Shown here: positions 49,803 through 64,000 of the stretch, piece by piece
Layout of the letters: the number at the start of each line of letters is the position of its first letter
How positions within the stretch are numbered: position 1 is the first letter of the stretch
Assembly (NCBI GenBank): GCA_049325535.1
Contig: JBMOKY010000001.1
Location: 749,942 to 813,941, forward strand
DNA from: Patescibacteria group bacterium
Lineage (GTDB): Bacteria > Patescibacteriota > Patescibacteriia > UBA10025 > JAHIVO01
DNA: 64,000 bases
Direction: 5' to 3'
Notes under the pieces: model-generated
What the model was told of the DNA's origin: nothing
What the model saw: only the letters and a program-made list of their open reading frames with translations
Database searches by the model: none
Position numbers and translations under genes: made by a program

Positions 49803-49805
49803 GGA

Positions 49806-50198
49806 TCAGGTCAGCCACATAAATGGCATATCGGTTATTTGGTAGACGATATAATAGATAACCACCAGTGGGAATACTATCCATAGAACGACCGCACAAA
49901 AAAGTACCACCAGCCAGAGTCCGGCTGCCAGCAATTTCCAGAATAAAATGATAATGCGAAAAACGATGCTTATGATCCGCCCTTCACGGGTCATATCACC
50001 GTACATCGGCTTAAACATGTTTTTCAGCCAGATGCCGAGTGCCACCCGCCGTTGCAGGTGAAATGTCGCGCTTTCTGATGCAAACCTGATCACGCGAAGC
50101 AACCCCTTCGAATACCACCAGATGGGGAAATAGAGGATATCCCAGAGGACGTCAACTAAAATGTATTTGATTGTAGCCAGTATGATATTTTGAGACAT
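49806..50198 (-). CDS. Small polytopic membrane protein upstream of the Clp-like gene
   Basis: ORF 4 nt from the clp-like start, co-oriented. Hydrophobic. Confidence 0.45.
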   Translation of the reverse strand: MSQNIILATIKYILVDVLWDILYFPIWWYSKGLLRVIRFASESATFHLQRRVALGIWLKNMFKPMYGDMTREGRIISIVFRIIILFWKLLAAGLWLVVLFCAVVLWIVFPLVVIYYIVYQITDMPFMWLT

Positions 50199-50295: not shown

Positions 50296-50676
50296 TCACA
50301 TGCCAAGTGTTTCTCGAATACGTCCGATGATATCCGTGAGTTTGACTTTTTCTTTTTCCATCATCTCGCACTGGCCGGCATCAACTGCTTGCCGTACCCG
50401 AGGATCCTCGGCATAGTTGGTCAGGAGTATTACCGGAACCAGCGCCCCCCAGCTATCCTTGCGCAACCGGTCTAATACCTCAATCCCATGCATCTTTGGC
50501 ATCATAATATCGAGCAAAATCAAATCCGGTCGCTGCGCCAATGCCGCACCGAGGCCCTCTTCACCATTTTGCGCCTCATATACGGAAAAATTCTGCTTTT
50601 CCAGCTCCTGGCGCAGTACCTGACGAATAGGCAATTCATCTTCTATGATCAAAATTCGTTTTGATGGAGTCCCCAT
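50296..50676 (-). CDS. Single-domain response regulator (REC only), paralog A
   Basis: Acidic pair EDE, phospho-Asp in LILLDIMMP, and conserved T (VILLTN). Confidence 0.8.
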   Translation of the reverse strand: MGTPSKRILIIEDELPIRQVLRQELEKQNFSVYEAQNGEEGLGAALAQRPDLILLDIMMPKMHGIEVLDRLRKDSWGALVPVILLTNYAEDPRVRQAVDAGQCEMMEKEKVKLTDIIGRIRETLGM

Positions 50677-50699
50677 ACAGACGTAGTGTAGCGCGACCG

Positions 50700-51899
50700 C
50701 TATTTATCCGCAAGCGTGCGACCCCGGGGATTATTTTTTTCCATTTTCCGTGCCGCTGCCTGTTGCTCGTTTTTCAATACTACTTCTTTAAATTTGCGAA
50801 ATGAATAAGCCATCTCATCAAATGCCCGCGAAAGTTCCCCGATCTCGTCAGCATCCTTCGTTCCGACCATATATTCCAGATTTCCCTTGCGGATGATGTC
50901 CACCCCTTCTTTCAATTTCACGATTGGTCGGCTGATCCGGCGACCCAGCCAGAGCGATAAAAGATACACGATGACGATAACTATCAGCGAAACCACGGAA
51001 ATAAATCCCAACATAGCCCGGATGGGTTGGGTGGCCTCCTGGTCCTCAATCTCAGTCATCAGGCACCACTGAAGCCGCGGCACGTAATTATGGGTGCTGA
51101 GCACTCGGACATTCCGATAATTGTATATCCTGAATATTGGCTCAGCGTGATCCTCAATGATCCCTCCCTCGCCGGCGTATTCGCGCATATCTTTGAAACA
51201 ATCACGAGTACCCTCGGAATTGACAGTCTGCTTCAGCGCCGAGTCAGGATTGAATCGCGAGGGACTGACCATGACATTGCCCGCACCAACCAGATACGCC
51301 TCACCGGTTTCTCCCAATAAATTCGTATCGCTGACGATGTCATACAGCCGATCCGGGAGAAAAACAGCAACCATCACGCCGCTCGTTTGGCCTTCATGAC
51401 TGATTGGCACCGCAATGTGAAATGTATTTCGTCCGGACGTCTCCTCATAGAGGATATCGCCAATATGAGGCCGGACTGAACCAACGATAAATTCCTTCTC
51501 CAGTGCATAGTTCTGCTCAATCCGATCTGATACCGTCGCACCAACCACAAATCCCTCGGTATCCAGGATGTATACTTCGGATAATTCCTGGAATTGCTGC
51601 AACATATGGTTCCGTAGTAACTCAGATATGGCAGCAGAATCGCACGTCAGCCCCGCGTCGACTGGAGTCATACACTGCTGGATGGCGCTCCCACCGGCAA
51701 AATCAGCCACGCGGTCGACCGAAACATCGAGGTATGTATTGACCTCGTGGGCACGGCTATAGGCAATCGTTTTCAGATTGTCAAAAACCTGGGTTTTAAA
51801 ATTGAGGGCAGAAAACCAGTAAAAGGATATGGCAGCCAGCGCAGTCAGTAACACACCGGGAATAAGGTAAATAAGCGTAACGCGTGTCTTTATGGTCAT
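50700..51899 (-). CDS. Membrane sensor: TM - periplasmic Cache-like domain - TM - HAMP, with no kinase or other output domain
   Basis: Two TM helices bracket a roughly 270-aa extracytoplasmic domain. A HAMP-like amphipathic segment follows (ISRPIVKLKEGVDIIRKGNLEYMVGTKDADEIGELSRAFDEMAYSF), then only about 30 residues. Confidence 0.55.
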   Translation of the reverse strand: MTIKTRVTLIYLIPGVLLTALAAISFYWFSALNFKTQVFDNLKTIAYSRAHEVNTYLDVSVDRVADFAGGSAIQQCMTPVDAGLTCDSAAISELLRNHMLQQFQELSEVYILDTEGFVVGATVSDRIEQNYALEKEFIVGSVRPHIGDILYEETSGRNTFHIAVPISHEGQTSGVMVAVFLPDRLYDIVSDTNLLGETGEAYLVGAGNVMVSPSRFNPDSALKQTVNSEGTRDCFKDMREYAGEGGIIEDHAEPIFRIYNYRNVRVLSTHNYVPRLQWCLMTEIEDQEATQPIRAMLGFISVVSLIVIVIVYLLSLWLGRRISRPIVKLKEGVDIIRKGNLEYMVGTKDADEIGELSRAFDEMAYSFRKFKEVVLKNEQQAAARKMEKNNPRGRTLADK

Positions 51900-52276
51900 G
51901 CGATTTTTTCCCGTACAGCCTTAATAATATCTTCTAATTTAGTTTCCGCTTTACTGAGCAGCTGGGCCCGACCAGTCCGCACCGCGTCCTGAACCCGCGG
52001 GTCATCGGCCACATTGGTCAATAAAATGACGGGTACGTGCTTTCCCCAGGTATCCTCTTTCAGACGCTGCAGCATTTCCATGCCGTGCATTTTTGGCATC
52101 AATACATCGAGCAAAATTAATTGCGGTCGTTCCTGAAACGCAATCATTGTGGCCGTTTCACCATTATCCGCTTCCAGTACCCGCAAACCGGTTTTTTCCA
52201 GTTCACGTCGAATAATCCGACGGATTGGTTCTTCATCCTCTACCAGCAAGACAGTTTGCGGAGCAGCCATAGGCAT
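51896..52276 (-). CDS. Single-domain response regulator (REC only), paralog B
   Basis: REC motifs as in paralog A, to which it is very similar. 4-nt overlap with the sensor gene start. Confidence 0.8.
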   Translation of the reverse strand: MPMAAPQTVLLVEDEEPIRRIIRRELEKTGLRVLEADNGETATMIAFQERPQLILLDVLMPKMHGMEMLQRLKEDTWGKHVPVILLTNVADDPRVQDAVRTGRAQLLSKAETKLEDIIKAVREKIA

Positions 52277-52286
52277 GGGTAATTTT

Positions 52287-52487
52287 CTAAAAATTCTCAG
52301 GGCGTAATTTATCTACCGAAGCAAGCATCGTCGTGCTGGCTTTCGCGATTTCCTGTATATACTCCCGCTGTTCGTCCGTCAGCGAATCGGCCGATTCATG
52401 CAACAGCGCCTCAGTATACAGTCTGATCGTAGTCAGCGGCGTCTTGAGCTCGTGACGGATTTCAGTAAATGAATCGGCGGTTGGCAT
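52287..52487 (-). CDS. Stand-alone HisKA (dimerisation/phospho-acceptor) domain protein, 66 aa, without HATPase_c
   Basis: H-box EIRHELKTPLTTIRLY followed by a second helix (…EYIQEIAKASTTMLASV). No ATPase domain lies anywhere in the neighbourhood. Confidence 0.5.
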   Translation of the reverse strand: MPTADSFTEIRHELKTPLTTIRLYTEALLHESADSLTDEQREYIQEIAKASTTMLASVDKLRPENF

Positions 52488-52495
52488 AGATGTAA

Positions 52496-52987
52496 TTATT
52501 CTTCAATCGGGGTAAAACTATCCACGGTGCCGCAAAATGTAAAGAGGGTGCGGCAGCATCCCTCCGCAGAAGTGCGGCAGACACTGGAAAATGTCACTTC
52601 AACCTGATCTCCGACATACGGGCGAAATTGTTCGCGCATGGAATCATACTTGCCAAATCCGATTTCAAAACCTTCATTGCTCAGTATGCCGTATGATTCG
52701 CTCGGGGTCTTGTACCCTTTGATAAAAACGACACCCGTCGAGGTAATCGGCTCATTGGTGTTGAAATTTCCGGCTGGCTCAGCGGAATTAGTATTTGCTG
52801 CGGCATTTACATTTTGATTGTCAAGCCCTACCGTAGCATTCACCGTGGCATTGATGTTCGTCGTGGATACCGATTGATTGCTGTTTAGCTCATTGACTTT
52901 GCTGAAAAAAGAAAACCCAAAATACCCGATCACTCCGAGGACGACGACCGTGATCCCGATTAAAATAAACTTTTTTGACATATTCAT
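52496..52987 (-). CDS. Membrane-anchored secreted hypothetical protein with Asn/Thr-rich low-complexity linker
   Basis: N-terminal TM/signal anchor. The C-terminal domain has 4 Cys. Confidence 0.45.
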   Translation of the reverse strand: MNMSKKFILIGITVVVLGVIGYFGFSFFSKVNELNSNQSVSTTNINATVNATVGLDNQNVNAAANTNSAEPAGNFNTNEPITSTGVVFIKGYKTPSESYGILSNEGFEIGFGKYDSMREQFRPYVGDQVEVTFSSVCRTSAEGCCRTLFTFCGTVDSFTPIEE

Positions 52988-52998
52988 AGAGATATAAA

Positions 52999-53685
52999 TT
53001 ATGGCTGCGGGATGGTATTAATAATGTCCGCGGCCGAATTGAAAAAATGTAGTTGCGTCACAAATTCCTTCGGCAATGTGCCGAGATTCATCATGGTATT
53101 CAGCAGTCCGATCCAATAATTACTGACGAAAAGTAGCTGCGGCGGCTGTTCGGTATGGTACTCGCGATTTTTCAAATGTACGATGGCGCGCATCAGTACC
53201 TGGAATGTGCCCAGTCCCCCACGGAACACGACGATAATCGGCGCGCAAGTCGCCAATATTTCATTGCGGGGTTGTGGGGAATTCACCACCGCCACCGGCG
53301 ATGTTCCGTCAATCTCTTTTTTCAGCTCGGTGAAAACTACTCCGATTGATTTTCCCTGTGCCGCGCTCGTGGTCGCCCCCATGATCCCGCCGGGACGACC
53401 GCCATTAATGATGATCCCGCCGGATTTTACTATCGTACCGACCAATGCCCGCGCTTCCTGGCACTGAGTGTGGGACTGCTCCAGGCTGCCGCCGCCGCTG
53501 ATCGCCACCACGAGACCCTCGCTCTCATAGGTGATCAGTTCGTCCTTGTGTGACTCGTGTATGGCGGCAAACCCATGGCTATGGCGCGCCGTCGCCGTGG
53601 AGATTGCCTCCCCGAGTAGCCGGCGTTTTTTCCGGGCGTACAACTCCTCTGGTTTGACAATTTGATTATTCATATCGAAGAGCAT
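52999..53685 (-). CDS. LOG-family (TIGR00730 / SLOG Rossmann) protein
   Basis: Motifs GGGxxGxMGA (NGGRPGGIMGA) and …FRGGLGTFQVL… are typical of the LOG / lysine-decarboxylase-like family. An N-terminal extension of about 50 aa is present. Confidence 0.55.
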   Translation of the reverse strand: MLFDMNNQIVKPEELYARKKRRLLGEAISTATARHSHGFAAIHESHKDELITYESEGLVVAISGGGSLEQSHTQCQEARALVGTIVKSGGIIINGGRPGGIMGATTSAAQGKSIGVVFTELKKEIDGTSPVAVVNSPQPRNEILATCAPIIVVFRGGLGTFQVLMRAIVHLKNREYHTEQPPQLLFVSNYWIGLLNTMMNLGTLPKEFVTQLHFFNSAADIINTIPQP

Positions 53686-54916
53686 CTAAAGCATTAATTT
53701 TCGCGGCACGGCGAGCTGGGTACACCCCGGTGATGACGCTGATGATAAATATAATCGCCGCGATCAGCAGTACAAAAATGAACGGGGTATAAAATATCTC
53801 CACCGGATCGCCTCCCAGGCGATTAGCCAGATACTTCATCAGGTAATTGAGCCCCTGGCCAGCCAGCCACCCAAGGCCGATACCGATCAAACCGCCGGTC
53901 ATACCGATGACGATCGCCTCGACCAGAAATAACCGATAAATGTCGACGGCGGTGGCACCGAGCGTTTTCATCAAGCCGATTTCACGGGTACGTTCGAGCA
54001 GGGAAACGGTCAGGGTGTTTAATGCGCCGATGGCGGCGACGAACATGGCGATAGCGCCAAAACCGGCGACAATCAATTCAAACACCACAAATATTTTATC
54101 GATCTGACCGACGGTGTCCGCCACAGAGTCCACCTGGTAGCCCATTGACTCGATCTGCTGGCGCACCTGGGGCAAGGCCGCTTCATCCTCCACTTTGATC
54201 CGGGCGACATTATACTCGGCATCTTCACCGTCATTGACCTTCACCCGAGCGGCGCTATAGTCCGGTTTGTACCCTAAACTTTTCAGGTATTCCAGCGGGA
54301 CGTAGGCCAGGCTCAATTCTTTGTCTTCATTGATGGCGCCGGCTACCGTGACTAATACATCGGTGGGAACCAGCTCTTCTTCAGTCGAACCCTCAATTTT
54401 CTTCGGCACCAGCAGCCGTAAATTCATCTTTTGATCGATTGACTCCTGGGGTGTCTCAAAACCGATCAGACTCAGCGCCGTTTTGGTCAGTACAATTTCC
54501 GGTTTGTCCTCGCCGCTAAATCCATTTCCATATGAAATCTTAACCCCTTCATAACTGAGAAATTTCGGATCGGTACCATATATCGCCACGTCAGTAACCG
54601 AAGCGCCATTGGTGATTTGACCGGACAAACTCAGTGACGGACTGACATCCTTCACGTTCTCTAGATTTTTAAAATCATCTACCACCTCATCATTGAGCTG
54701 GAGCAGCGTGGACTCACCTTTGGATACGTCCAGTATCGTCAGTGCCTCCACATTCGCGATCTGGCTCCGGACCAGGCGTTGCAGCCCAAATCCTATCGAT
54801 ACCAAAAAAACTATCAGCGAAATACCGACCGCCATGCCACCGATAGTCAGGAAACTGCGCAGCTTGCGGCGGCGGAGATTGGTACTGGATAATAATACGG
54901 TAAATCCTAATTGCAT
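53666..54916 (-). CDS. ABC transporter permease, MacB/FtsX-like (N-terminal TM, periplasmic domain, C-terminal FtsX 3-TM block)
   Basis: Topology and C-terminal FtsX-type signature. Follows the ATPase gene. Confidence 0.8.
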   Translation of the reverse strand: MQLGFTVLLSSTNLRRRKLRSFLTIGGMAVGISLIVFLVSIGFGLQRLVRSQIANVEALTILDVSKGESTLLQLNDEVVDDFKNLENVKDVSPSLSLSGQITNGASVTDVAIYGTDPKFLSYEGVKISYGNGFSGEDKPEIVLTKTALSLIGFETPQESIDQKMNLRLLVPKKIEGSTEEELVPTDVLVTVAGAINEDKELSLAYVPLEYLKSLGYKPDYSAARVKVNDGEDAEYNVARIKVEDEAALPQVRQQIESMGYQVDSVADTVGQIDKIFVVFELIVAGFGAIAMFVAAIGALNTLTVSLLERTREIGLMKTLGATAVDIYRLFLVEAIVIGMTGGLIGIGLGWLAGQGLNYLMKYLANRLGGDPVEIFYTPFIFVLLIAAIIFIISVITGVYPARRAAKINALDALRYE

Positions 54917-54918
54917 AG

Positions 54919-55779
54919 TTAGGCTGACAAAAATTGTTCGCTTCCCTGGATCACCCGTCCATCGCGAATATAGATAGTACGCGAGGCATACCGAACATAA
55001 TCAATATTGTGGGTGACCAGGATAATCGTTTTCTTGAATTTTTCGTTGAGCTCCTTAAATAAATTCATCACCCGATCGGCTGATTTACTGTCCAGATTAC
55101 CGGTCGGCTCATCAGCAATGATGATACCCGGATCATGTACCAGCGCCCGGGCAATAGTCACTTTTTGCTGCTGTCCACCGGACAGTTCCGTGGGAAAATA
55201 ATCCGCATGATCATCCATGCCGATTTCCCGCAAACGCTGCATGGCTATTTCGTGTCGTTTTTTCTTGTCCTCATTATTGATAGCCATCGGGAGTTCGACA
55301 TTTTGTACCACGGTCAGTGACCGCACCCATTCCGGCCGCTGAAACACGATACCGATTTTACTGTATCGGATTTTGGAAATTTTATCCGGTTTTTTAGTGG
55401 TCAAATCAATGCCACCAAGGATGACATGTCCGGAAGTCGGGGGCTCCAGCCCCAGCAGTGTATTGAGAACGGTTGATTTGCCGCTTCCTGACGGGCCCAG
55501 AATAACGATAAACTCCTCAGGATAAATACTAATGTTAATATCCTTCAAAACATGGATGACATTTTTACCCACCACGAATTTTTTCTGCACGTCTTTCACC
55601 TCAAGTAGCGGTTTTGATTTCTTGCCAGCTGGGGCTGCCGCCGCGGTCTGCTGTGCTAATTGCGCAATGGTCAAACCGCCACCTGTCTCGGCAGCTGGCA
55701 TACTCGTCCTCGCCAAAACCGCCGTCGGTTCGGTTATTTTCTTTTTTTGATTTTCGCTCGTGCTCGCCATACTACTCAT
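54919..55779 (-). CDS. ABC transporter ATP-binding protein, MacB/LolD-like
   Basis: Walker [10 protein letters not shown], signature LSGGQQQKV, Walker [12 protein letters not shown]. Start set at the ATG 1 nt downstream of the giant gene stop. The listed longer start is TTG. Confidence 0.85.
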
Positions 55780-55780
55780 T

Positions 55781-58700
55781 TTAAAATAAGCTTCCGACAT
55801 TGCCCAACCAGGAGAAGGTAGCCTCAAGATTAGAAATAATCAACTGAAGGAACGACTCGCGCTCACGGGACGTCAGCACCGTGTGTGAATCCGATTTGGT
55901 CACGTTACCGGCCTTATCAGTCGACACCACCCGAAAATGATATGTTTTTGCCGGAGCGAGATTGGTCACTACCACCAAATGATCGAGTACGAGCTCGGCA
56001 TTCTCTTCTGTTTCATCGGTATAATCAGTACCACCCAACCCAACGCCATACTCTACCTTTGAAGTCGTGGCTTCATTTGTTTTCCAGGAAATGACGATTT
56101 GGATCTTTGAGGCATCCCCGGAACCGATCGTGTTTGACTCAGATGCGACGCCAAATATTTCCGGGGGGGTAGTGTCTTCCAGTGTAGTAAATTCCAATTC
56201 AGCGGATTCTGCCTGATACCCAAATTCGTCATTCCCCCTGACGATATATTTATACAGCGTGGCATCCTCCAGCCCGAAGAGTAGCACGGAATGATCGGTC
56301 TGTAGCGCGGCTGTTCCCTGCACCTTTGGAGCGATATTTTCATTGTAGTACTCCACTTCCGAGGTAGTGGGTACGTTTGTCTTCCATCGGATTTCAGTCT
56401 GCCCTTCGGCTTTATTTTCCGTAACCACATCGCTCACCTGAGGAAATGTCAGCGTCTGAAATGTGTAGTTGTCCGAGCTAATCGTATTGCCCGATTTATC
56501 CACGCCATTGATACGAAGATTGTACGTGGTACTGTCTGAAAGGTTTTCCAGCTTGACCGTATGAGTAAATGCAAATGAGCCGGACGTATCAGTATAAGTC
56601 AAGCCGTAATTGGTCGTGGTGCCGTACTCGATAACAGCCGTCGTCTCCTTGTTCGTTTCCCAGGAAATGATGGCATCAAACAGCCGGATATCCGACACCT
56701 CCAGATTGAGCACTCGCGGAGCCTCGAGAGTCGTAAATGACTGCACTGACGACAGGGCGACATTTTCATCCACGTCGATACTCTTCACTTGATAGTAATA
56801 TTTAGTCTGGGGTTTGAGGCCGGTGACTTTCACCGAGTGCGACTCGACCTGATCAGCGAGTCCCTGTTCAGTATCGAGCCCGCCCTCAGTCAGGCCGATC
56901 TCCACGAACGACGAAGCGATACGCTCAGTACGCCAGGTAATGGTCGCAGAATATGAATCGGCAACAGCAGTCGGCCCCTCGGTAATTTCCGGCGGCTGGG
57001 TGAAGCGGCCCTCTGGTTTCTCCGACACCACGTCGGTGGGGTCTGATGTAGCCGCGGCTTTGTCTTTGGCCGTAATCAGGTAAAAATACTCCTGCGTATT
57101 ATCGAGGCCGGTGTCGAGATACCCCGTCGAGGTGATGGTGGCGATATCTTCAAAGGTCTCATTATCCGTGGACCGGCTGATGGTATAGAATAATTCGTCA
57201 TCAGTGGTATACCCCTCCGGCGGATCCCAAGTGATGGTGATCGAGTAGCGCTTGGCGTCGCGATCCGACGAATCGGTGATGGTCACAGCCTGTGGCGGAC
57301 CCGGCGGGGTGGTGTGGGCTACAAATTCGACGGCGGCATAGTTATCATAGCTGAGGTTGCCGCCATCATCCACCGCCAAAACATAAAACGTATTCGTACC
57401 CTGCTGCGTAGCGGCATCAATCGGACCGACGCTCGTCGCTTCCGTGTACGTCACATTAGATTCATTCGGCAAATTATTGATGGAGTAATAATACCCCGCC
57501 ACCGTGACACCCTCATCCTGCGGCGCCTCCCATTCAAAAGTATAGCTATTAGTCGTATTGCTCAGTGGATCCACGGTCAGATTCAGCGGTGCCGATGGCG
57601 CGCCTTTGGTCAGGAACGTGAAATCGGTCGAATACCCAGTATTGCCGTCCTGATCCGTCCAACGCGTACGATAATGGTACTCGGTATCGGGCTGTAGATT
57701 AGTCAGAGTAACTTCGTGTTCATTGACCAGGTCGGGCGTGCCGGCTTCATTACCGTACGCCGTCGTCGTTCCATATTCCACGTAGGAAGACGCGTCGTGC
57801 TCGACGATATTACCGTACTGATCCTGATCATCCAGCGTCAACCATTCCACGATCGCCGAACGGATGAAGGGCGTGACAGTTGGCTGACCACTCATGAGTG
57901 GAGCAAATTTAAATTTACCCTCGGGTTTGATTTCCAAAACTGCTGAGTTACCCGACTGCACACCACCGGTACCGGCCGCGCGCGCAAAGTAGCTATAAGT
58001 GATATCAGTATCAAGGCTGGTATCCAAATATCCCAGGGTGTTGACCGTAGCAATCTTTGAATAATTCGCCGGCGGATCATCCACCGAATCAGGATTTTCA
58101 CAATCCGCTTCACAACGATATACATTGTACCCGGTCACTCCCGACCCGACATCAGCTGGTTCATCCCAGGTCAGCACCACGGAGTATTTTTGTGTGGCGC
58201 GATCGGACGTATCGGTCGCCGCGGCACTGGAAGGAACACCAGGCGCATTTGAAGAAAAATAGTAATTTTCCGATACGTAATTATCATAGTCAATATTATT
58301 GATCGCGTCAGCGGCGACGATGTAAATGGTGTTTTCTCCCTGCTGCGTGGCCGCAGAAAACGACAACAATGACCGTGAACTGGTTTGCGTACTGGTCGTC
58401 CAGCCGCCATCAGGCGACGGCGTGGCGCTGCCGGCCAAATTAATTCCGCATGTTTCCGCCGAAGGCAGCTCATTGATGGTATAGCAATAACGAAGTATAT
58501 CAGCTGAATCGCAATCCCCAGCTCCAGAACCGAGACACGTACTCGGCAAATCCCACGTCACGGTAAACGAATTGACGTCCTCCTGGGGACTGAGCGCGCT
58601 CGTCACCGGATCGATAACGATATTCTGCGGCGCTGAAGGTGCGTCGCCGGCATAGTAAAAAATTCTTTCCCGGCAGGTGACGGAAACATTATCAGCATTG

Positions 58701-61700
58701 TCCACCGAGTATACGCAAAATGAATTTTCTCGGGTCTGCGTGGCGAGCTCATCATTGACCGCGTTGGTCGGCACGCAGGTCTGCGCCCCTTCATTGATTG
58801 CATAACAATACTCCTTGATCCCCGAACCGCCGGTATCGGTCGCTACTGGCCATGAAAAATCAAAATTATTGACCGATGTCCAGCTGGCGGGCGTGGCCGT
58901 CACTGACGAAGGTCGCGACGGCGCAATGGTATCCAATTTATAGGTAAAAAGCGTGCCGCTCGAAACAGACGTATTATTATTTCGATCCTTCGTCCGGATG
59001 ATCAGATAGTATTCGTCAGACGTCAAAGCTGAAGCCGCCTGAGTGGTGACGTCCCATGATCCAGCCGATCCGTCAGGTGAGGCATAAAAATTCGTTCCGC
59101 CGACATAGGCGAGATTGGTTGGATCATCGGCATCGTCAATCGGATCTTTGGTATCGTCACTGCCAAAATATACGTAAAACCCGTCTATGCCGATACCGCC
59201 GGCATTATCAGCGGCAGACCAGTCGAAATACGGCGTTGTTTCATTTGTCCATGTATCATCGGCGATGCCGGTACCCATCCCACTATCAGTATAGCCAAGG
59301 ACCACCGCTGGATTGCTCGGCGCCGACAGGTCACTATAGTACGTCCAGCTGATATCATCGATCGACGGGGTGTACACTTGGTCGGAGGCAAAGCTGAGAC
59401 GCACCTGGCCGTACTGGGATACATCCGATTCCACTGAATAATATGTCGTGCCGCCGATCGTACGGACGTTCCCCGCCTCTTCCCATTCCCCGGGCGTGGT
59501 GCAACTAGCGTCATCACAGGTCCGCGTCTCTACCGCCAGCGAGGTATTGTCAGCTAATGTGCTGGTCACCGCCAGGGTGCCATACCCAAAAACACCTGCG
59601 GTGAAATCATTCACTTGCGATATCCATGATCCGTTTGCCTGGAAACCGGTCGATGCCGTCGAAACCACATACCGCTCCATGGCCGACGTGGACTCACCGC
59701 GAAAACCCAATATGATATTATTATCGGTCATCACCAAGGAACCGTATTCATAATACTGAAGCACGGTTCTCGTCGTCCACGAATCCCCCGACAAATCATA
59801 AACATACATTTCATCGGTATTATTACCCCGAGGCACCAGAATATTGCCCTGGCCATCCAGTACGCAGGCATCACCATAATACAAAGCAGCCGGCGCCAAC
59901 GCCATTGTTTCCCAAGTCAAACCCGGATTATCCGCCGGATCGGTATTAAACCGATATATATTCCTCGTATTATTACTTTGTACATAATACACATAATTAT
60001 CTCCACCGACAGAAGCGTACACCGCGCAAGAACCAAGATACGCTGCTGCGGTCAAGTTCGTACTCGTACCGATTTGTGTCCAGACATCATCAGTGATGTC
60101 ATATGAATAAAAGTACCGCGTGTTAGCACCCGTAATGAGGTATATCGTATCATTGCCGTCATACACCAAATCAGCGCCATAACCCGGTTCTGTAATATTT
60201 GCCGGCGCGCTTGTACGATGATTCAGTCGTGTCCATAAATCTGTTTTCGGATCATAGCGGTAAAAATACGCGATGTTATCCCCCAGGCCATCATCGCCAC
60301 TCAGCAAATATACTCCATCGAGCGCGTCAGTGGCATGATCAATATACTCCGCGTCAGCTCCGAATCGGACATAGTGCGGCACGCTGGCGCGCTTTTCCCA
60401 TCGCTCCAATTCCGGATAGTACGCATAGAAATCGGGGGTATTCAAACCGCGCGCCACAAACATCGCATCCTTCGTATCCTCAGCGTCATCATAAAAAGCC
60501 GTAGCGCCATAATAAAACCCTGCCCGGTTCAGGCCGGTTGGCAGTGCTTGCGTCCGCCAGCGGTTATCCGACACGTCATACGCCAATAAAGTGTATTCAG
60601 CCTCGCCACGCAGCACGTACAGCGTATCGGTTTCTTCGACATAGAACATGGAATTGGAGCTACCCAGGTATTTACTGGTCGGGATGTCAGCCAGGTATTC
60701 CCACTTATTTTGGGCGATGTCATAGCGCAGAAAATCGTTTGACACGTGACCCCGCAGCAGATAAATGTATCCGTCGATGTAATATGACGTCGCGCCATAC
60801 GATGTCCAGAGCGGAACGTTGTTGCCGTATGACCAGCTGCCACCTACTTCATATTTATAGAAATCGTTATCATTGTACCCCCGCGTCGCATACACACAGC
60901 CGCCGGCCGTTCCACAATAATCGCCATTGGGCACATAGGTCAGTGTGTGTCCATAGTACGCTGTTTGATCCATGTCAGGCACCGCCGGATCGCTCCAGAT
61001 ACCGGTGGAAATGGTATACTTCATGAAATAATATTGGGCGTTCCCGCTGGAAGCATAGATAGTGTCATTGCCGTCATACACTAGGCTGCCACCGTAACTC
61101 ACGATCTGCGAAACAGGATTCATCGTATCCCACGTTTTGGCGCTAATATTGTACCGCTTAAACGTCGTGCCATTGCCGGCCGTCGCAAATAAACATCCTG
61201 AGGCGTCTGTACAACCGAGGGTAACACCGTTGGGCACATACACCATAGCAGCACCACGGGTGACATTCACCGTCCCGTATGCCGTGTGTGTCTCGTCATA
61301 TGTTTTATTGGAAATAGAATACGCCCACAGGTTTTGCGAGTTATTGCCGCGTAATATAAATAATGTATCGTTGCCGTCGTAGGCGATGGTCGACCCGTCA
61401 TTGGCCGTAGTGGCAGATAGCTGCAGCGGTGTCGGAGCCTCATGCGTCCACACGCCATCGGCCACCGAGTCTAATTTCATGGTATCACCCGAATCGGCAT
61501 TGGTATTGATATTCGTTTCCGTGATTCCAACCGCCCCAAAATCCGCGCTGTCATCCCAGTCGACGGATGCCGACGGTGAAATGCCGCTGTACTCATAAGT
61601 AAATACCGTCTGCGCGGCAGCGACATTTCCCGCTTGATCTTTGGCGGCCACGCGCAAGTGGTAAATGCCCGAAGATATCTGATTGCCGTCCTTGTCTACC

Positions 61701-64000
61701 GTCACCACGTACGTATCATCAGTCTGAAAATAATCCTCACTGGTGGACGGATCAAACGCGACGTCGGCGTCCGTCACCCAGGCTACATAATACCCGGCCA
61801 GTCCGGACTCGCCGTCACTGCCACCGGAAAATTCGAAGTAAGGATTGACGTAATAATAATTTTCCCCGTCCACCAGGACGGATGTCTCGGCAGCATCGGA
61901 ATACCCGTCAGCCGACGGATTAGTCGGATCAGTGGAATCTTTTTCGTAATTGATGGTGAAACTATTGACGATCGGCGTGCTGGTATTATCGGAATGAAGC
62001 TCGACCTTCACCTGAATATACCTTCCTACCGTCGAATCGATCTCCCAGTCTATATCCTCTACCTGATCCCAGGCGGTCCAGGATACCTGGTCATCCGACG
62101 TCCGAGTATAGAAATCCACCGTGGTCGTACCCGGCGTAGTCACTGAGGCGGAAAATCCGTTGAAAGCAGTGGCATACGTCAGATCAATAGTATCGGAAAT
62201 CCAGGTGGCCGACGGAATATATTCATCCGTTTCCGTGGCATATGCATAAATGGCGAACGTATCACTTCCGCGACGTACATACATAGTATCGTTCGCGTCA
62301 TCATGCGCCATGGACTGGCCCCGGATAAATTCAGTTGGTAATTCACTCACTTTCGTCCACTCATCTTCGGAAATGTCATACCGATAATAATTCTTATTGA
62401 ATCCGCTGGAAATGGCGTAGATATTATCGACACCATCAAATTCCAAGACGGTATTATAGTACGCTGCCGCCGGAAAATCATTCAGGGTCGACCAGGTATC
62501 GGTGTCGGGATCATACCGGTAAAAATTACCGCGCCAGTAACCCGGCATGACAAACACGTCATCACCATTATCGGTGATGGCTCCGCCATAAAACGCGGCG
62601 TTTGTTGCAGGAATGTCCGGGATAGTTTCCGTGGTCCAGCCAGCACTATACCGAAATACATTGCGCGTGCCATTGCCCTGCAGCACGTAAAATTCATTAT
62701 CAGCCAAACAGGTAATCCCGGCGCCTTCTTCCGGATTTCCCGGTATGCTGCCGATAGTACTCCAGGTGCCGGCCGATATGTCATAGTTTGCTACCGTAGC
62801 AGTATTGCGCGCACGAATATAATAAATATTATCATTTCCGTCGTAGCACATGGACGACCCGATCTGCGGACGGTAATCAGTCGGGGTAGTAGCTAGATCG
62901 GTCAAACTATTCCATACTTTTGCGGCGATGTCATACCGATAAAAAGTTACTGATGTATCACCGCGCATGATAAAAAGACAGCCAGTGGCATCAGCGCAGT
63001 CTACTCCATTGGGCACAAATACCATTTCATTGCCATCGTACGAACCCGAAGCATCGGCATTTAATGTGATGGAATCCCACTTACCCTCCGTCACATCATA
63101 TTTCAGGAGCTCGGGCCGATTGATACCGGGCAGGGCATATACATACCCATCCAGATATTCCAGCGAGCCGCCTTCATTCACCGTCACGTTCATATCCGGC
63201 GTATCGGCCGACAGCGCATCCCAGGTATTTGCCTCCACATCGTATTGGGCAAATTCATCGTTCGACCCGCCGGTGACCATGTATATAGTTTCAGTATCAT
63301 CGTTGTAGGCCATCGCACTTCCGTAATTGATGCGACCAGAAGTACCCAAATCAGTGTCTACTGTGGCCGCCTGGACCCAAGTGCCGTCTTTTATTTCATA
63401 ACGAAAAAAACGAACATTGTTATTTCCCTGAAAGGCGTAAATACAACCCTGCTCGCAATAGGTCGTCTCCCCAACGGTCCAGCTTTTGCTGGAGTACTCG
63501 AGGGCGTGCCCATTCGTCGTATAAATCTGATATGGTGACGGAATGCTATTCTCATTGTCCTTCCATATACCGGTGGCGATATTGTACGACCAAAACTTGT
63601 CAAAATTTTTACCCTGCACCGCGTACAATTTTCCATTTTCCCCGCTGACGATGTCCGAACCCAGGCCCCATGTGTCTGGCGCGTCAGCCAGCCGGTCCCA
63701 GGTGTCCGCGGCAATGTCATAGCGGAAAAAATCTTTTCTGGCATCTGTTGAATCATCGCCATCCTGACCGTTGATGGCATAGAGATATCCATCGTAGTAC
63801 GCCAGGCTGCCACCATAATGAAATCCAGTTGGCGCATCCGCCAGTTGTTTCCACGTCGCCAGCTCAGGATTGTAGCGAAACAAATCAGGCTGACGGCCGC
63901 CGATGATCATGTACAGATAGGTACCGTCAGTGACCAGGTCAGCGCCATAGGTGGCCCCATCGTGGTTATTGAACCCCGTGTACGCGTTGCTATACACCAT
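55781..64000 (-). CDS. Giant repetitive surface/secreted protein, N-terminus beyond the window end (>2739 aa): long array of Kelch-type beta-propeller-like blades followed by several fibronectin-III-like domains
   Basis: Continuous ORF of 8.2 kb. At least 40 degenerate repeats of about 50 aa have a Y(D/E)GNDTIY…W…(L/M) pattern. The C-terminal 700 aa contain FN3-like units (…VEYGTTTAYG…TEYHYRTRWTDQDGNTGYS…, …KTYHFRVVSTDKAGNVTKS…). Confidence 0.8.
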   Translation of the reverse strand: MVYSNAYTGFNNHDGATYGADLVTDGTYLYMIIGGRQPDLFRYNPELATWKQLADAPTGFHYGGSLAYYDGYLYAINGQDGDDSTDARKDFFRYDIAADTWDRLADAPDTWGLGSDIVSGENGKLYAVQGKNFDKFWSYNIATGIWKDNENSIPSPYQIYTTNGHALEYSSKSWTVGETTYCEQGCIYAFQGNNNVRFFRYEIKDGTWVQAATVDTDLGTSGRINYGSAMAYNDDTETIYMVTGGSNDEFAQYDVEANTWDALSADTPDMNVTVNEGGSLEYLDGYVYALPGINRPELLKYDVTEGKWDSITLNADASGSYDGNEMVFVPNGVDCADATGCLFIMRGDTSVTFYRYDIAAKVWNSLTDLATTPTDYRPQIGSSMCYDGNDNIYYIRARNTATVANYDISAGTWSTIGSIPGNPEEGAGITCLADNEFYVLQGNGTRNVFRYSAGWTTETIPDIPATNAAFYGGAITDNGDDVFVMPGYWRGNFYRYDPDTDTWSTLNDFPAAAYYNTVLEFDGVDNIYAISSGFNKNYYRYDISEDEWTKVSELPTEFIRGQSMAHDDANDTMYVRRGSDTFAIYAYATETDEYIPSATWISDTIDLTYATAFNGFSASVTTPGTTTVDFYTRTSDDQVSWTAWDQVEDIDWEIDSTVGRYIQVKVELHSDNTSTPIVNSFTINYEKDSTDPTNPSADGYSDAAETSVLVDGENYYYVNPYFEFSGGSDGESGLAGYYVAWVTDADVAFDPSTSEDYFQTDDTYVVTVDKDGNQISSGIYHLRVAAKDQAGNVAAAQTVFTYEYSGISPSASVDWDDSADFGAVGITETNINTNADSGDTMKLDSVADGVWTHEAPTPLQLSATTANDGSTIAYDGNDTLFILRGNNSQNLWAYSISNKTYDETHTAYGTVNVTRGAAMVYVPNGVTLGCTDASGCLFATAGNGTTFKRYNISAKTWDTMNPVSQIVSYGGSLVYDGNDTIYASSGNAQYYFMKYTISTGIWSDPAVPDMDQTAYYGHTLTYVPNGDYCGTAGGCVYATRGYNDNDFYKYEVGGSWSYGNNVPLWTSYGATSYYIDGYIYLLRGHVSNDFLRYDIAQNKWEYLADIPTSKYLGSSNSMFYVEETDTLYVLRGEAEYTLLAYDVSDNRWRTQALPTGLNRAGFYYGATAFYDDAEDTKDAMFVARGLNTPDFYAYYPELERWEKRASVPHYVRFGADAEYIDHATDALDGVYLLSGDDGLGDNIAYFYRYDPKTDLWTRLNHRTSAPANITEPGYGADLVYDGNDTIYLITGANTRYFYSYDITDDVWTQIGTSTNLTAAAYLGSCAVYASVGGDNYVYYVQSNNTRNIYRFNTDPADNPGLTWETMALAPAALYYGDACVLDGQGNILVPRGNNTDEMYVYDLSGDSWTTRTVLQYYEYGSLVMTDNNIILGFRGESTSAMERYVVSTASTGFQANGSWISQVNDFTAGVFGYGTLAVTSTLADNTSLAVETRTCDDASCTTPGEWEEAGNVRTIGGTTYYSVESDVSQYGQVRLSFASDQVYTPSIDDISWTYYSDLSAPSNPAVVLGYTDSGMGTGIADDTWTNETTPYFDWSAADNAGGIGIDGFYVYFGSDDTKDPIDDADDPTNLAYVGGTNFYASPDGSAGSWDVTTQAASALTSDEYYLIIRTKDRNNNTSVSSGTLFTYKLDTIAPSRPSSVTATPASWTSVNNFDFSWPVATDTGGSGIKEYCYAINEGAQTCVPTNAVNDELATQTRENSFCVYSVDNADNVSVTCRERIFYYAGDAPSAPQNIVIDPVTSALSPQEDVNSFTVTWDLPSTCLGSGAGDCDSADILRYCYTINELPSAETCGINLAGSATPSPDGGWTTSTQTSSRSLLSFSAATQQGENTIYIVAADAINNIDYDNYVSENYYFSSNAPGVPSSAAATDTSDRATQKYSVVLTWDEPADVGSGVTGYNVYRCEADCENPDSVDDPPANYSKIATVNTLGYLDTSLDTDITYSYFARAAGTGGVQSGNSAVLEIKPEGKFKFAPLMSGQPTVTPFIRSAIVEWLTLDDQDQYGNIVEHDASSYVEYGTTTAYGNEAGTPDLVNEHEVTLTNLQPDTEYHYRTRWTDQDGNTGYSTDFTFLTKGAPSAPLNLTVDPLSNTTNSYTFEWEAPQDEGVTVAGYYYSINNLPNESNVTYTEATSVGPIDAATQQGTNTFYVLAVDDGGNLSYDNYAAVEFVAHTTPPGPPQAVTITDSSDRDAKRYSITITWDPPEGYTTDDELFYTISRSTDNETFEDIATITSTGYLDTGLDNTQEYFYLITAKDKAAATSDPTDVVSEKPEGRFTQPPEITEGPTAVADSYSATITWRTERIASSFVEIGLTEGGLDTEQGLADQVESHSVKVTGLKPQTKYYYQVKSIDVDENVALSSVQSFTTLEAPRVLNLEVSDIRLFDAIISWETNKETTAVIEYGTTTNYGLTYTDTSGSFAFTHTVKLENLSDSTTYNLRINGVDKSGNTISSDNYTFQTLTFPQVSDVVTENKAEGQTEIRWKTNVPTTSEVEYYNENIAPKVQGTAALQTDHSVLLFGLEDATLYKYIVRGNDEFGYQAESAELEFTTLEDTTPPEIFGVASESNTIGSGDASKIQIVISWKTNEATTSKVEYGVGLGGTDYTDETEENAELVLDHLVVVTNLAPAKTYHFRVVSTDKAGNVTKSDSHTVLTSRERESFLQLIISNLEATFSWLGNVGSLF

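What the first reader, a model, noticed from the sequence alone, without database searches (positions are those of the whole stretch)
55781..64000. Giant (>2739 aa, 5-prime end off-window) Kelch-repeat/FN3 surface protein directly followed by a MacB/FtsX-type ABC pair and a LOG-family gene
The 8.2-kb ORF is a long array of degenerate roughly 50-aa blades (Y[DE]GNDTIY…W…) followed by several fibronectin-III-like domains. This is typical of giant adhesin-like proteins of episymbiotic small-genome bacteria. The stop codon is 1 nt from the start of a MacB-like ABC ATPase, then an FtsX-like permease, then a LOG-family protein, all co-oriented. This suggests the transporter is dedicated to export or surface handling of the giant protein, or to a linked envelope function. 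The N-terminus and secretion signal are beyond the window.
Basis: partly seen in the sequence, partly recalled or inferred. Interest (0 to 1): 0.55.

Follow-up and report, generated by a model that had tools for sequence, protein, structure and literature searches.

The report
Giant surface protein with dedicated ABC motor
The window ends in an intact gene for a 2,865-residue surface protein of an ultrasmall (Patescibacteria/CPR) bacterium. Across this whole group of bacteria, this protein family is encoded next to its own MacB/FtsX-type ABC ATPase-permease pair, and I found no paper that describes this unit.

Summary
Window 55781..64000 (-) is one open frame of 2,739 codons. The full protein is 2,865 aa, and only 126 aa lie off-window: a basic stretch and one hydrophobic signal/anchor helix. 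It contains 24 Kelch blades in two 12-blade blocks, each followed by a beta-sandwich. About a dozen FN3-like domains follow, then a conserved 20-aa amphipathic C-terminal helix. The next genes are an ABC ATPase, a MacB_PCD/FtsX permease and a LOG/SLOG-like gene.

The giant-plus-ABC/FtsX linkage recurs in 24 further Kelch-giant loci, down to 27% identity, with no informative exception. Proteins that lack Kelch blades but keep the FN3 array and the tail are also flanked by this pair in 5 of 6 informative cases. The LOG-like gene is linked only in the closest clade.

Best reading: the protein is exported by Sec. The type VII ABC pair then acts on it from outside the membrane, by anchoring, assembling or actuating it, probably through the stalk and tail. 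It is not the exporter. This mechanism is inferred. It is a new variant of a known kind.

The parts
55781..64000 (-). Giant envelope protein gene. The window holds residues 127-2865 of 2,865 plus the stop codon. The first 126 codons (basic stretch and signal/anchor helix) lie beyond the window.
   Evidence: ORF and translation. Full-length P0001 and source contig loci L001/L002. More than 110 collinear homologues of 2,240-2,970 aa in Patescibacteria.
62219..63976 (-). Kelch block 1, about 12 blades (P0001 aa ~135-720).
   Evidence: Pfam Kelch_6, Kelch_1 and Kelch_3. Blade motif spacing of about 45-55 aa. Block boundaries are approximate.
61577..62218 (-). Beta-sandwich (jelly-roll-like) domain 1 plus a conserved Ig/FN3-like domain (P0001 aa ~721-934).
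   Evidence: Conserved family columns (SGTWxS...TRTSxD...WSxW...RYxQxK; PYFxW...GYYVY). Assigned by homology with the modelled block 2. Boundaries are approximate.
59309..61576 (-). Block 2: N-terminal strands, 12 four-stranded Kelch blades and a C-terminal beta-sandwich (P0001 aa 935-1690).
   Evidence: AlphaFold2 model with mean pLDDT 89.3 and pTM 0.86. Foldseek finds tandem double propellers and 6-bladed Kelch domains, with TM-score only 0.3-0.4 for full-length matches.
55853..59308 (-). Array of about a dozen FN3-like / purple-acid-phosphatase-N-like beta-sandwich domains (P0001 aa ~1691-2842). Residues ~1921-2260 are an insertion found only in the long class.
   Evidence: Pfam fn3 and Pur_ac_phosph_N x4. 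AlphaFold2 model of the last 426 aa shows four sandwiches at pLDDT 87. Foldseek finds fibronectin and LAR FN3 strings. The insertion shows in the conservation profile. The domain count is estimated from length.
55784..55852 (-). Conserved C-terminal tail: a basic patch followed by an amphipathic helix of about 20 aa (SRERESFLQLIISNLEATFSWLGNVGSLF).
   Evidence: Present at the very C-terminus of nearly all full-length family members in four sequence variants. Predicted as a helix but unpacked, pLDDT about 52-56. Helical hydrophobic moment 0.43 against 0.27 for body windows. Too polar for a transmembrane helix: best 19-aa hydropathy is 0.96. Also present in Kelch-less paralogues.
54919..55779 (-). 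ABC ATPase of the MacB/LolD/FtsE type. An alternative in-frame start lies at 55800. It has a non-conserved N-terminal extension of about 55 aa.
   Evidence: Pfam ABC_tran 117 bits. NCBIfam best matches are MacB, LolD and FtsE, all below their cutoffs. Walker A (GPSGSGKST), signature (LSGGQQQ) and Walker B (IIADEPT) are visible in the translation. Orthologues in other loci align only from about residue 40-65.
53666..54916 (-). Type VII ABC permease, 416 aa, with a MacB-like extracytoplasmic core domain and an FtsX C-terminal domain.
   Evidence: Pfam MacB_PCD 71.9 bits and FtsX 69.6 bits. PDB sequence matches are YtrF 9o9x (E 9e-30), 5xu1, MacB, LolF, LolC and LolE. Alignment of 19 orthologues from giant-linked loci.
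52999..53685 (-). LOG/SLOG-superfamily protein, 228 aa. It overlaps the permease gene by 20 nt and is linked only in the closest clade.
   Evidence: Pfam Lysine_decarbox 36.2 bits and LDcluster4 32.9 bits. TIGR00730 scores 37.6 against a cutoff of 96.35. Present after the permease only in L003, L007, L009, L012 and L017. FRGGxGT is invariant, but no Glu follows in any of the 6 orthologues.
52496..52987 (-). Small membrane-anchored protein of 163 aa with a Cys-rich C-terminal part, loosely associated with the unit.
   Evidence: No Pfam or NCBIfam match. Orthologues follow the LOG-like gene in L003, L009, L012 and L017, and sit directly upstream of the giant gene in L005 and L006.

Best explanation
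This is one copy of a conserved Patescibacteria envelope unit with two components.

1. **A very large extracytoplasmic protein.** It has an N-terminal Sec-type signal or anchor. Its 'head' here is four Kelch half-blocks totalling 24 blades, with two beta-sandwiches. A rod of about a dozen FN3-like domains follows, ending in a conserved amphipathic C-terminal helix.
2. **A dedicated type VII (MacB/FtsX-like) ABC ATPase-permease pair**, tightly coupled to the giant gene.

**Proposed mechanism**
- The giant protein crosses the membrane by the general Sec route, using its own N-terminal signal.
- The ABC pair does not translocate it.
- As in other type VII systems, cytoplasmic ATP hydrolysis moves the permease's extracytoplasmic domain.
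- That movement acts on the already exported protein, most probably through its conserved stalk end and C-terminal helix. The effect would be to hold it at the membrane, assemble it, or switch, extend or release it.
- The variable heads (Kelch here, LamG-like or none elsewhere) would then be the outward-facing binding parts.

**Shown versus inferred**
- Shown: the gene is intact, the domain anatomy, the conserved two-way synteny, and the fact that the linkage follows the FN3 array plus tail.
- Inferred: Sec export, a physical contact between tail and permease, and what the ATP-driven step achieves.
For: **The giant gene**
- It is intact, and the full length was recovered.
- The N-terminal hydrophobic helix is conserved family-wide. 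The long class has a long basic stretch plus the helix. The short class often looks like a classical signal peptide, e.g. ...PQIAFA...SSATA, and ...ATPVSA|AS in L062.
- The long class has conserved Cys pairs, which fits an extracytoplasmic location.

**Anatomy**
- AlphaFold2 models have pLDDT 89 and 87.
- Foldseek finds double propellers and FN3 strings.

**Forward synteny**
- ABC plus MacB_PCD/FtsX lies beside the Kelch giant in 24 loci besides the window's own.
  - Directly downstream in 21: L003, 8, 9, 12, 14-19, 21, 25, 26, 33-35, 37, 38, 76, 84, 105.
  - After an inserted paralogue in L007.
  - Upstream in L011 and L022.
- This holds down to 27-30% giant identity, with unrelated flanking genes.
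- No informative locus lacks the pair.

**Reverse synteny**
- In a metagenome scan with the permease alignment, pairs with ABC identity of 42% or more have a relative of the giant (Kelch-bearing or Kelch-less) upstream wherever upstream DNA exists.
- Generic MacB pairs (permease 25-30% identity) never do.

**Co-divergence**
- Identity of the giant correlates with identity of the ABC and of the permease, r = 0.79 and 0.72 over 27 loci.

**The linkage follows the stalk and tail**
- Kelch-less proteins that keep the FN3 array and tail are flanked by the pair in L118, L119, L122, L062 and L067.
- Tandem paralogues in L004 and L007 share aa ~1510-2865, including the tail.

**The tail**
- It is conserved, amphipathic, unpacked in the model and not a transmembrane segment.

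**Precedent**
- Type VII ABC systems each work with an extracytoplasmic partner: FtsEX-EnvC, LolCDE-LolA, MacAB-TolC and YbbAP-TesA (abstract of PMC12646458, seen).
Against: - There is no direct evidence of contact between the giant protein and the permease. Complex prediction was not possible with these tools.
- One tail-bearing protein, P0194 (3,494 aa, locus L120), has no adjacent ABC pair.
- The N-terminal helix of the long class may stay as an anchor. Both ends would then be membrane-associated, and the geometry is unclear.
- Putting propellers near the N-terminal anchor and the rod distal would be unusual for an adhesin.
- No enzyme domain was found that the ABC pair could regulate, unlike the FtsEX partners.
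- Nothing is known about expression or localisation.
- Cultured Saccharibacteria with Tn-seq data (S. epibionticum) show no Kelch protein in their Pfam table, so no genetic data apply.
Confidence: 0.5

Rival explanations
1. The ABC pair is a dedicated exporter. It recognises the conserved C-terminal tail as a secretion signal and moves the giant protein across, or out of, the membrane, as in type I secretion.
For: The C-terminal tail is conserved and uncleaved-looking, and the genes are strictly adjacent. Tail-bearing paralogues share the operon.
Against: The permease is of the MacB/FtsX type, with 4 predicted TM helices and a large outside domain. It is not an HlyB-type exporter. From established knowledge, this class has no transmembrane substrate channel. 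The giant has its own N-terminal signal or anchor. No RTX repeats and no membrane-fusion or outer-channel genes lie nearby.
Confidence: 0.1
2. The ABC pair is a Lol-like extractor. It pulls the membrane-embedded N-terminal anchor (or the tail) out of the outer leaflet, to release the giant protein to the wall or S-layer or to shed it.
For: LolC, LolE and LolF are among the closest solved relatives of the permease. The long class has an anchor-like N-terminus. The synteny evidence is the same as for the best explanation.
Against: The short class has ordinary signal peptides that would be cleaved without help. The feature shared by all linked proteins is the C-terminal array and tail, not the type of N-terminus. 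No LolA-like acceptor gene was seen.
Confidence: 0.15
3. The giant protein is an autonomous adhesin or S-layer-like coat. The ABC pair has an unrelated job, such as peptide or toxin resistance, and the two are merely co-inherited.
For: Large FN3-bearing surface proteins of Patescibacteria are generally read as host-adhesion candidates (PMC13059738). MacB-type pairs are common resistance pumps. One tail protein has no ABC pair beside it.
Against: The adjacency survives complete turnover of the flanking genes and divergence to 27% identity. It holds in both search directions and is kept when the head domains are swapped. The stop and start codons are 1 nt apart or overlapping.
Confidence: 0.1
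4. The unit is a contact or glycan sensor. The propeller heads bind a ligand and the ABC pair relays the event to the neighbouring receiver-domain proteins, as Bce-type ABC pumps signal to kinases.
For: Stand-alone receiver genes recur right after the permease in L003, 9, 11, 12, 14, 16, 22 and 26. A HisKA-only ORF and a dCache/HAMP protein follow in the window. The top Foldseek match is the double-propeller sensor domain of BT4663.
Against: The fold match is generic (TM-score about 0.3). Many loci (L033-L037, L118, L119, L122) have no signalling genes nearby. No complete histidine kinase lies in the window's cluster.
Confidence: 0.07

Closest known systems
FtsEX with EnvC / PcsB / CwlO (type VII ABC controlling an extracytoplasmic partner)
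   Same: An ABC ATPase plus a 4-TM FtsX-fold permease with an outside domain. The partner protein is exported separately and is acted on from outside. From established knowledge, the partner is gripped through helices.
   Different: The permease carries a MacB-type core domain and scores far below the FtsX and FtsE cutoffs. The partner is a 2,865-aa Kelch/FN3 protein with no hydrolase or coiled-coil domain. A cell-division role is not indicated.
LolCDE, MacAB-TolC and YbbAP-TesA (other type VII ABC systems)
   Same: The same permease architecture and ATPase type. LolF, LolC, LolE and MacB are among the best solved relatives. Each system has a dedicated envelope partner (PMC12646458 abstract).
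   Different: No equivalog cutoff is met. No membrane-fusion protein, outer channel, LolA-like carrier or lipase lies nearby. The host is a monoderm-like Patescibacterium.
B. subtilis YtrEF (PDB 9o9x)
   Same: It is the best solved sequence relative of the permease, E 9e-30. It is a separate ATPase and permease in a monoderm, linked to cell-envelope properties (title of PMC8060467).
   Different: The match covers only the C-terminal FtsX domain (query residues 247-416). The ytr operon has no giant surface protein, as far as I know.
Large FN3- or repeat-rich surface proteins of Patescibacteria and giant repeat adhesins
   Same: Very large size, an N-terminal signal or anchor, and a rod of FN3-like domains with binding-type heads. 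Such proteins are usually proposed to mediate host contact (PMC13059738).
   Different: This family is collinear and evenly conserved over its whole length across classes. It ends in a conserved amphipathic tail and is tied to a type VII ABC pair, rather than to sortase, type I secretion or other known surface-display routes.

Membership tests
Type VII (MacB/FtsX-superfamily) ABC system | ABC ATPase with intact nucleotide-binding motifs | tested here: met
   Pfam ABC_tran 117 bits against a cutoff of 25. Walker A, signature and Walker B motifs are readable in the translation.
Type VII (MacB/FtsX-superfamily) ABC system | Permease with a large extracytoplasmic core domain after TM1 and an FtsX-type C-terminal domain | tested here: met
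   MacB_PCD 71.9 bits (residues 21-240) and FtsX 69.6 bits (residues 286-408). PDB relatives are YtrF, 5xu1, MacB, LolF, LolC and LolE.
MacAB-TolC tripartite pump (MacB proper) | Reaches the MacB equivalog score, with a membrane-fusion protein partner | tested here: not met
   NF007826 scores 83.6 (permease) and 205 (ATPase) against a cutoff of 966. No HlyD/MFP family was found among the neighbours scanned.
FtsEX (cell division) | Reaches the FtsE and FtsX model cutoffs | tested here: not met
   FtsE TIGR02673 scores 186.7 against 264.85. FtsX_Gpos scores 61.5 against 225, over the C-terminal part only.
LolCDE | Reaches the LolD and LolC/E model cutoffs | tested here: not met
   LolD TIGR02211 scores 204.1 against 307.75. 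lolCE TIGR02212 scores 75.3 against 362.45.
Kelch-repeat beta-propeller proteins | Repeated four-stranded blades of about 45-55 aa that match Kelch models | tested here: met
   Kelch_6 scores 101.8 bits against 25.3. There are 12 four-stranded units in the AlphaFold2 model of block 2. Foldseek finds Kelch domains.
FN3 / purple-acid-phosphatase-N beta-sandwich arrays | Tandem FN3-fold domains | tested here: met
   fn3 84.3 bits and Pur_ac_phosph_N 97 bits in 4 stretches. The model shows four sandwiches. Foldseek finds FN3 strings.
LOG (cytokinin-riboside-phosphate phosphoribohydrolase) enzymes | PGGxGTxxE motif with its Glu (motif recalled from the literature) and a family-level score | tested here: not met
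   The superfamily hit exists only at the Pfam level (36.2 against 27). TIGR00730 scores 37.6 against 96.35. The motif reads (F)RGGxGT followed by hydrophobic residues, with no Glu in any of 6 orthologues.
Type I secretion substrates | No N-terminal signal, RTX-type repeats, and an HlyB-type ABC with a membrane-fusion protein | tested here: not met
   An N-terminal hydrophobic signal or anchor is present. There is no RTX hit. The ABC is of the MacB/FtsX type and no MFP was found.
Tripartite C-terminal sorting signals (LPXTG, PEP-CTERM and similar) | A motif, then a hydrophobic TM segment, then a basic tail at the C-terminus | tested here: not met
   Best 19-aa hydropathy of the tail is 0.96. 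The basic residues precede the helix rather than follow it. No sorting-signal model in NCBIfam matched the last 906 aa.

The most novel reading that the evidence does not exclude
The conserved basic-patch-plus-amphipathic-helix tail may be a previously unrecognised C-terminal docking or sorting signal. It would be read by a dedicated type VII ABC mechanotransmitter. Together they would form a Patescibacteria-specific, ATP-powered system for surface display or actuation of giant modular proteins with interchangeable heads (Kelch, LamG-like and others). Such a system could drive attachment to, or detachment from, host cells.
Probability: 0.25. Interest if true: 0.85.

Novelty: new variant of a known kind. 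Interest (0 to 1): 0.62.

Why it matters
Patescibacteria make up a large share of bacterial diversity. They are thought to live attached to other cells, yet the machinery of their cell surface is almost unknown.

This work gives a concrete and widely applicable handle on that surface:
- a giant surface protein with fixed architecture, conserved from Kerfeldbacteria-like to Microgenomates-, Moranbacteria- and Saccharibacteria-labelled genomes
- an ATP-driven type VII ABC pair that is always encoded beside it

If the ABC pair acts on the protein's stalk and tail, that would add a new kind of partner to the type VII ABC family, namely a giant modular surface protein. It would also define a new C-terminal signal that could be used to list the 'clients' of the system in any genome.

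Tried and rejected
**Searches that failed or had to be narrowed**
- The alignment of 39 diverse family members (A1) was too divergent for the locus search. A closer set (A2) worked.
- The 95-sequence alignment and the 73-sequence structure input were too large. Thirty sequences were used instead.

**Searches that returned nothing useful**
- A protein search with the last 130 aa, meant to list tail-bearing 'clients', returned only 5 fragments.
- Look-ups of P0216 and P0205 ended at contig edges.
- L040 has no long ORF upstream of its ABC gene despite tblastn matches, so it was left uncounted.

**Literature**
- Nine searches found no paper on this unit.
- The essential S. epibionticum proteins SEML1_0890 and SEML1_0891 looked like a lead but are only 195 and 565 aa and unrelated in architecture.
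- That organism's Pfam table has no Kelch or Pur_ac_phosph_N entry.
- Its MacB-like pairs have no giant neighbour.

**Other rejected ideas**
- Promoter and terminator scans gave no clear operon boundaries: promoter-like sites were near the shuffle expectation and the terminator-like sites were weak.
- A pseudogene reading is rejected because the frame is intact on two assemblies.
- A transmembrane tail anchor is rejected because the hydropathy is too low.
- Galactose-oxidase-like or other enzymatic propellers are not supported. The invariant residues are nearly all structural W, G, Y and P.
Full report
**1. The observation**

Window 55781..64000 on the minus strand is a single open frame of 2,739 codons that runs to the window edge. 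At about 50% GC this cannot arise by chance: by my arithmetic, (61/64)^2739 is roughly 1e-57.

A protein search returned the full-length product, P0001, of 2,865 aa. It differs from the window translation at one residue. It is encoded intact on two independent Logan assemblies, whose gene order matches the window. Only 126 residues are therefore missing. They contain a basic stretch of 14 K/R residues and one hydrophobic helix at about aa 41-63.

Pfam confirms the domain content:
- Kelch_6, 101.8 bits
- Pur_ac_phosph_N, 97 bits in four stretches
- fn3, 84.3 bits

- An ABC ATPase. Its ATG at 55779 lies 1 nt after the TAA stop. An in-frame ATG at 55800 would overlap the giant gene by 20 nt.
- A MacB_PCD+FtsX permease at 53666..54916.
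- A Lysine_decarbox/LDcluster4 protein at 52999..53685.

**2. Anatomy of the giant protein**

Blade motifs recur every 45-55 aa in two blocks of about 12 blades each.

An AlphaFold2 model of the second block (P0001 aa 935-1690) is confident, with pLDDT 89.3 and pTM 0.86. It shows short N-terminal strands, twelve four-stranded blades and a C-terminal beta-sandwich. Foldseek against the PDB finds tandem double propellers (BT4663 sensor domain, GH74 enzymes, WD40 pairs) and six-bladed Kelch domains. TM-scores for the full-length matches are only about 0.3-0.4, so the similarity is generic. I infer that the N-terminal strands and the C-terminal sandwich form one split domain with the propellers inserted. 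I could not inspect coordinates to check this.

A model of the last 426 aa (pLDDT 87) shows four FN3-like sandwiches. A terminal helix follows (P0001 aa 2843-2862) at pLDDT about 52-56, meaning it is not packed on the body. Foldseek finds fibronectin and LAR FN3 strings.

The invariant residues of the family are almost all W, G, Y and P. This points to structural rather than catalytic conservation.

**3. The family**

More than 110 collinear homologues were found. They carry NCBI labels of Patescibacteria, Kerfeldbacteria, Nomurabacteria, Moranbacteria, Microgenomates and Saccharibacteria.

- There is a long class of mostly 2.8-2.97 kaa at 41-76% identity.
- There is a short class of about 2.4 kaa at 26-30% identity.
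- The difference is an insertion of about 340 aa of FN3-type domains.
- Conservation is even along the whole length.
- Reading every one of 1.84 billion cluster representatives with a 996-aa query gave 114 proteins at E <= 1e-30. By my count from the list, roughly 30 of these are collinear giants of 2.38-2.95 kaa.

Two features are shared by nearly all full-length members:
- An N-terminal hydrophobic helix. The long class has a long basic lead. The short class often looks like a classical signal peptide.
- A C-terminal tail made of a basic patch and an amphipathic helix of about 20 aa. It comes in four variants: ESFLQLIISNLEETFSWLG, DALNLVIENLSKTFGFL, NATEIVVNTFSSKFGWI and NVFDNILNLMLKLFRF.

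The tail's helical hydrophobic moment is 0.43, against 0.27 for other windows of the same proteins. Its hydropathy of 0.96 is too low for a membrane span.

**4. Does the linkage to the ABC pair recur?**

*Forward test.* The loci came from a scan of species-representative genomes and from look-ups of distant homologues. I compared them with the window's proteins. Together with the metagenome loci of the reverse test below, 24 Kelch-giant loci besides the window's own have the ABC ATPase and MacB_PCD/FtsX permease next to the giant gene.

| Position of the ABC pair | Loci |
|---|---|
| Directly downstream (21) | L003, 8, 9, 12, 14-19, 21, 25, 26, 33-35, 37, 38, 76, 84, 105 |
| After an inserted paralogue (1) | L007 |
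| Just upstream (2) | L011, L022 |

- The flanking genes are otherwise unrelated.
- The remaining loci end at contig edges, or continue into a paralogue and then end (L004-6).
- No informative locus lacks the pair.

*Reverse test.* I scanned metagenome contigs with an alignment of 19 linked permeases and screened the loci for the giant.
- Pairs whose ATPase is at least 42% identical have a relative of the giant (Kelch-bearing or Kelch-less) upstream wherever upstream DNA exists.
- The many generic MacB-type pairs (permease 25-30% identity) have none.
- The identities of giant, ATPase and permease co-vary, r = 0.72-0.79 over 27 loci.

The pair is therefore dedicated to this protein family.

**5. 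What exactly is linked?**

Many Patescibacteria proteins lack Kelch-like blades but keep the FN3/PAP-N array and the tail.

| Protein or locus | Description | ABC pair adjacent? |
|---|---|---|
| Tandem paralogues in L004 and L007 | 1,587-1,688 aa; share aa ~1510-2865 of the giant including the tail | share the giant's locus (pair seen after the paralogue in L007; L004 ends at the contig edge) |
| P0113 (L118) | 2,373 aa | yes |
| P0115 (L119) | 1,555 aa | yes |
| P0224 (L122) | 1,793 aa, LamG/DUF2341 head | yes |
| Shorter proteins in L062 and L067 | FN3 array plus tail | yes |
| P0194 (L120) | 3,494 aa | no |

The constant partner of the ABC pair is therefore the FN3 array with its tail. The head domains vary.

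The LOG-like gene follows the permease only in the closest clade (L003, 7, 9, 12, 17). It scores below the TIGR00730 cutoff. In the six orthologues aligned it lacks the Glu of the PGGxGTxxE motif, which I recall from the literature. It is a lineage-specific addition, probably a ligand-binding SLOG-type protein rather than a LOG enzyme.

**6. The ABC pair**

- The ATPase has intact motifs.
- Its best NCBIfam matches are MacB, LolD and FtsE, all below their cutoffs.
- The permease's best solved relatives are B. subtilis YtrF (9o9x), 5xu1, MacB, LolF, LolC and LolE. No equivalog cutoff is met.
- No membrane-fusion, outer-channel or LolA-like gene lies nearby.
- Permease length falls into two groups, about 400 aa and 600-850 aa, which follow the tail class.

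**7. Mechanism**

From established knowledge, type VII ABC systems do not carry substrates across the cytoplasmic membrane. They use ATP to move an outside domain that acts on a partner: FtsEX-EnvC, LolCDE-LolA, MacAB-TolC and YbbAP-TesA (abstract of PMC12646458). The giant protein has its own signal or anchor.

I therefore favour the following sequence:
1. The protein is exported by Sec.
2. The ABC pair then acts on the exported protein to retain, assemble or actuate it.
3. The conserved, unpacked amphipathic tail and the adjoining stalk are the likely handle.

This last step is inferred from the conservation and the synteny pattern, not shown.

The rivals are scored lower, for the reasons given in their entries:
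- a tail-directed exporter
- a Lol-like extractor of the anchor
- unrelated co-inherited genes
- a contact sensor feeding the neighbouring receiver proteins

**8. Novelty**

Nine literature searches found no description of this unit. Large FN3-bearing surface proteins of Patescibacteria are mentioned only generically, as adhesion candidates (PMC13059738). The genetically tractable S. epibionticum has no Kelch protein in its Pfam table.

I rate this a new variant of a known kind: a type VII ABC system with a new class of partner and a possible new C-terminal signal. Interest is moderately high. The unit is widespread in a poorly understood major lineage and gives testable predictions, but its function is still inferred.

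Noticed in passing
window 50296..52487 (-): After the unit come a 66-aa HisKA-only ORF, a stand-alone receiver protein, a dCache+HAMP membrane protein with no kinase domain, and a second stand-alone receiver. No HATPase_c domain lies in the cluster. The HisKA-only ORF is conserved in L003, 9, 11, 12 and 17, and receiver genes recur after the permease in several loci. This may be a phosphorelay with a Spo0B-like dimerisation/phosphotransfer protein.
   Followed up: partly
window 52496..52987 (-); L005:9280-9741; L006:9263-9724: A 163-aa membrane-anchored protein with a Cys-rich C-terminal part has no family match. It travels with the unit: after the LOG-like gene in the closest clade, but directly upstream of the giant gene in L005 and L006. 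There its N-terminus reads like a lipoprotein signal (...LMTGC).
   Followed up: partly
L004:18482-28420; L007:8870-13903; L005:18866-20206: One or two extra genes sit between the giant gene and the ABC pair (the contigs of L004 and L005 end before any ABC gene). They encode Kelch-less paralogues of 1,587-1,688 aa with their own basic-plus-hydrophobic N-terminus and the same FN3 array and C-terminal tail.
   Followed up: yes
L036:15-6125; L037:287-7999: In the Saccharibacteria-labelled locus L036 and the similar L037, a second giant protein (2,036-2,570 aa, faint NHL-repeat hits) lies directly upstream of the Kelch giant. It ends in a clearly hydrophobic C-terminal segment, not the amphipathic tail.
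   Followed up: no
L033, L034, L062, L067, L076, L084, L118, L119 (permease genes): Permeases linked to the 'DALNLVIENLSKTFGFL'-type tail are 600-850 aa instead of about 400 aa. They have extra N-terminal sequence and a much larger region before the FtsX domain.
   Followed up: no
window 47067..50198 (-): A 911-aa ClpB/ClpC-like double-AAA protein carries hydrophobic helices in its first ~130 residues. A 130-aa membrane protein precedes it. The pair is conserved next to the unit in L007 and L012. A membrane-anchored Clp-type unfoldase is unusual.
   Followed up: no
L011:3369-5905: Four genes with prepilin-type N-termini (e.g. GFTLIEILLA, GYSLIEIVLA) lie directly upstream of the ABC-permease-regulator-giant cluster in this locus.
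   Followed up: no
L010, L013, L019, L023, L025, L029 (record titles): Several genome records that carry this family are titled 'uncultured Gammaproteobacteria bacterium'. The two longest of these loci (L019, L025) nevertheless carry the giant-ABC-permease unit, and L025 also has a T4SS-pilin gene like the window's. The titles look like mislabels.
   Followed up: no
S. epibionticum genes SEML1_0053/0054 (supplement of PMC10633639): A MacB_PCD/FtsX permease and an ABC ATPase of 311 aa show a growth-defect classification in Tn-seq, with no giant gene beside them. Whether they are orthologues of the pair studied here was not tested.
   Followed up: no
window 54919..55800 (-): The ABC ATPase has a low-complexity N-terminal extension of about 55 aa (Ala/Thr/Gln/Lys-rich). 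Orthologues either lack it or have unrelated sequence there, and the true start codon is uncertain (55800, 55779 or further downstream).
   Followed up: partly
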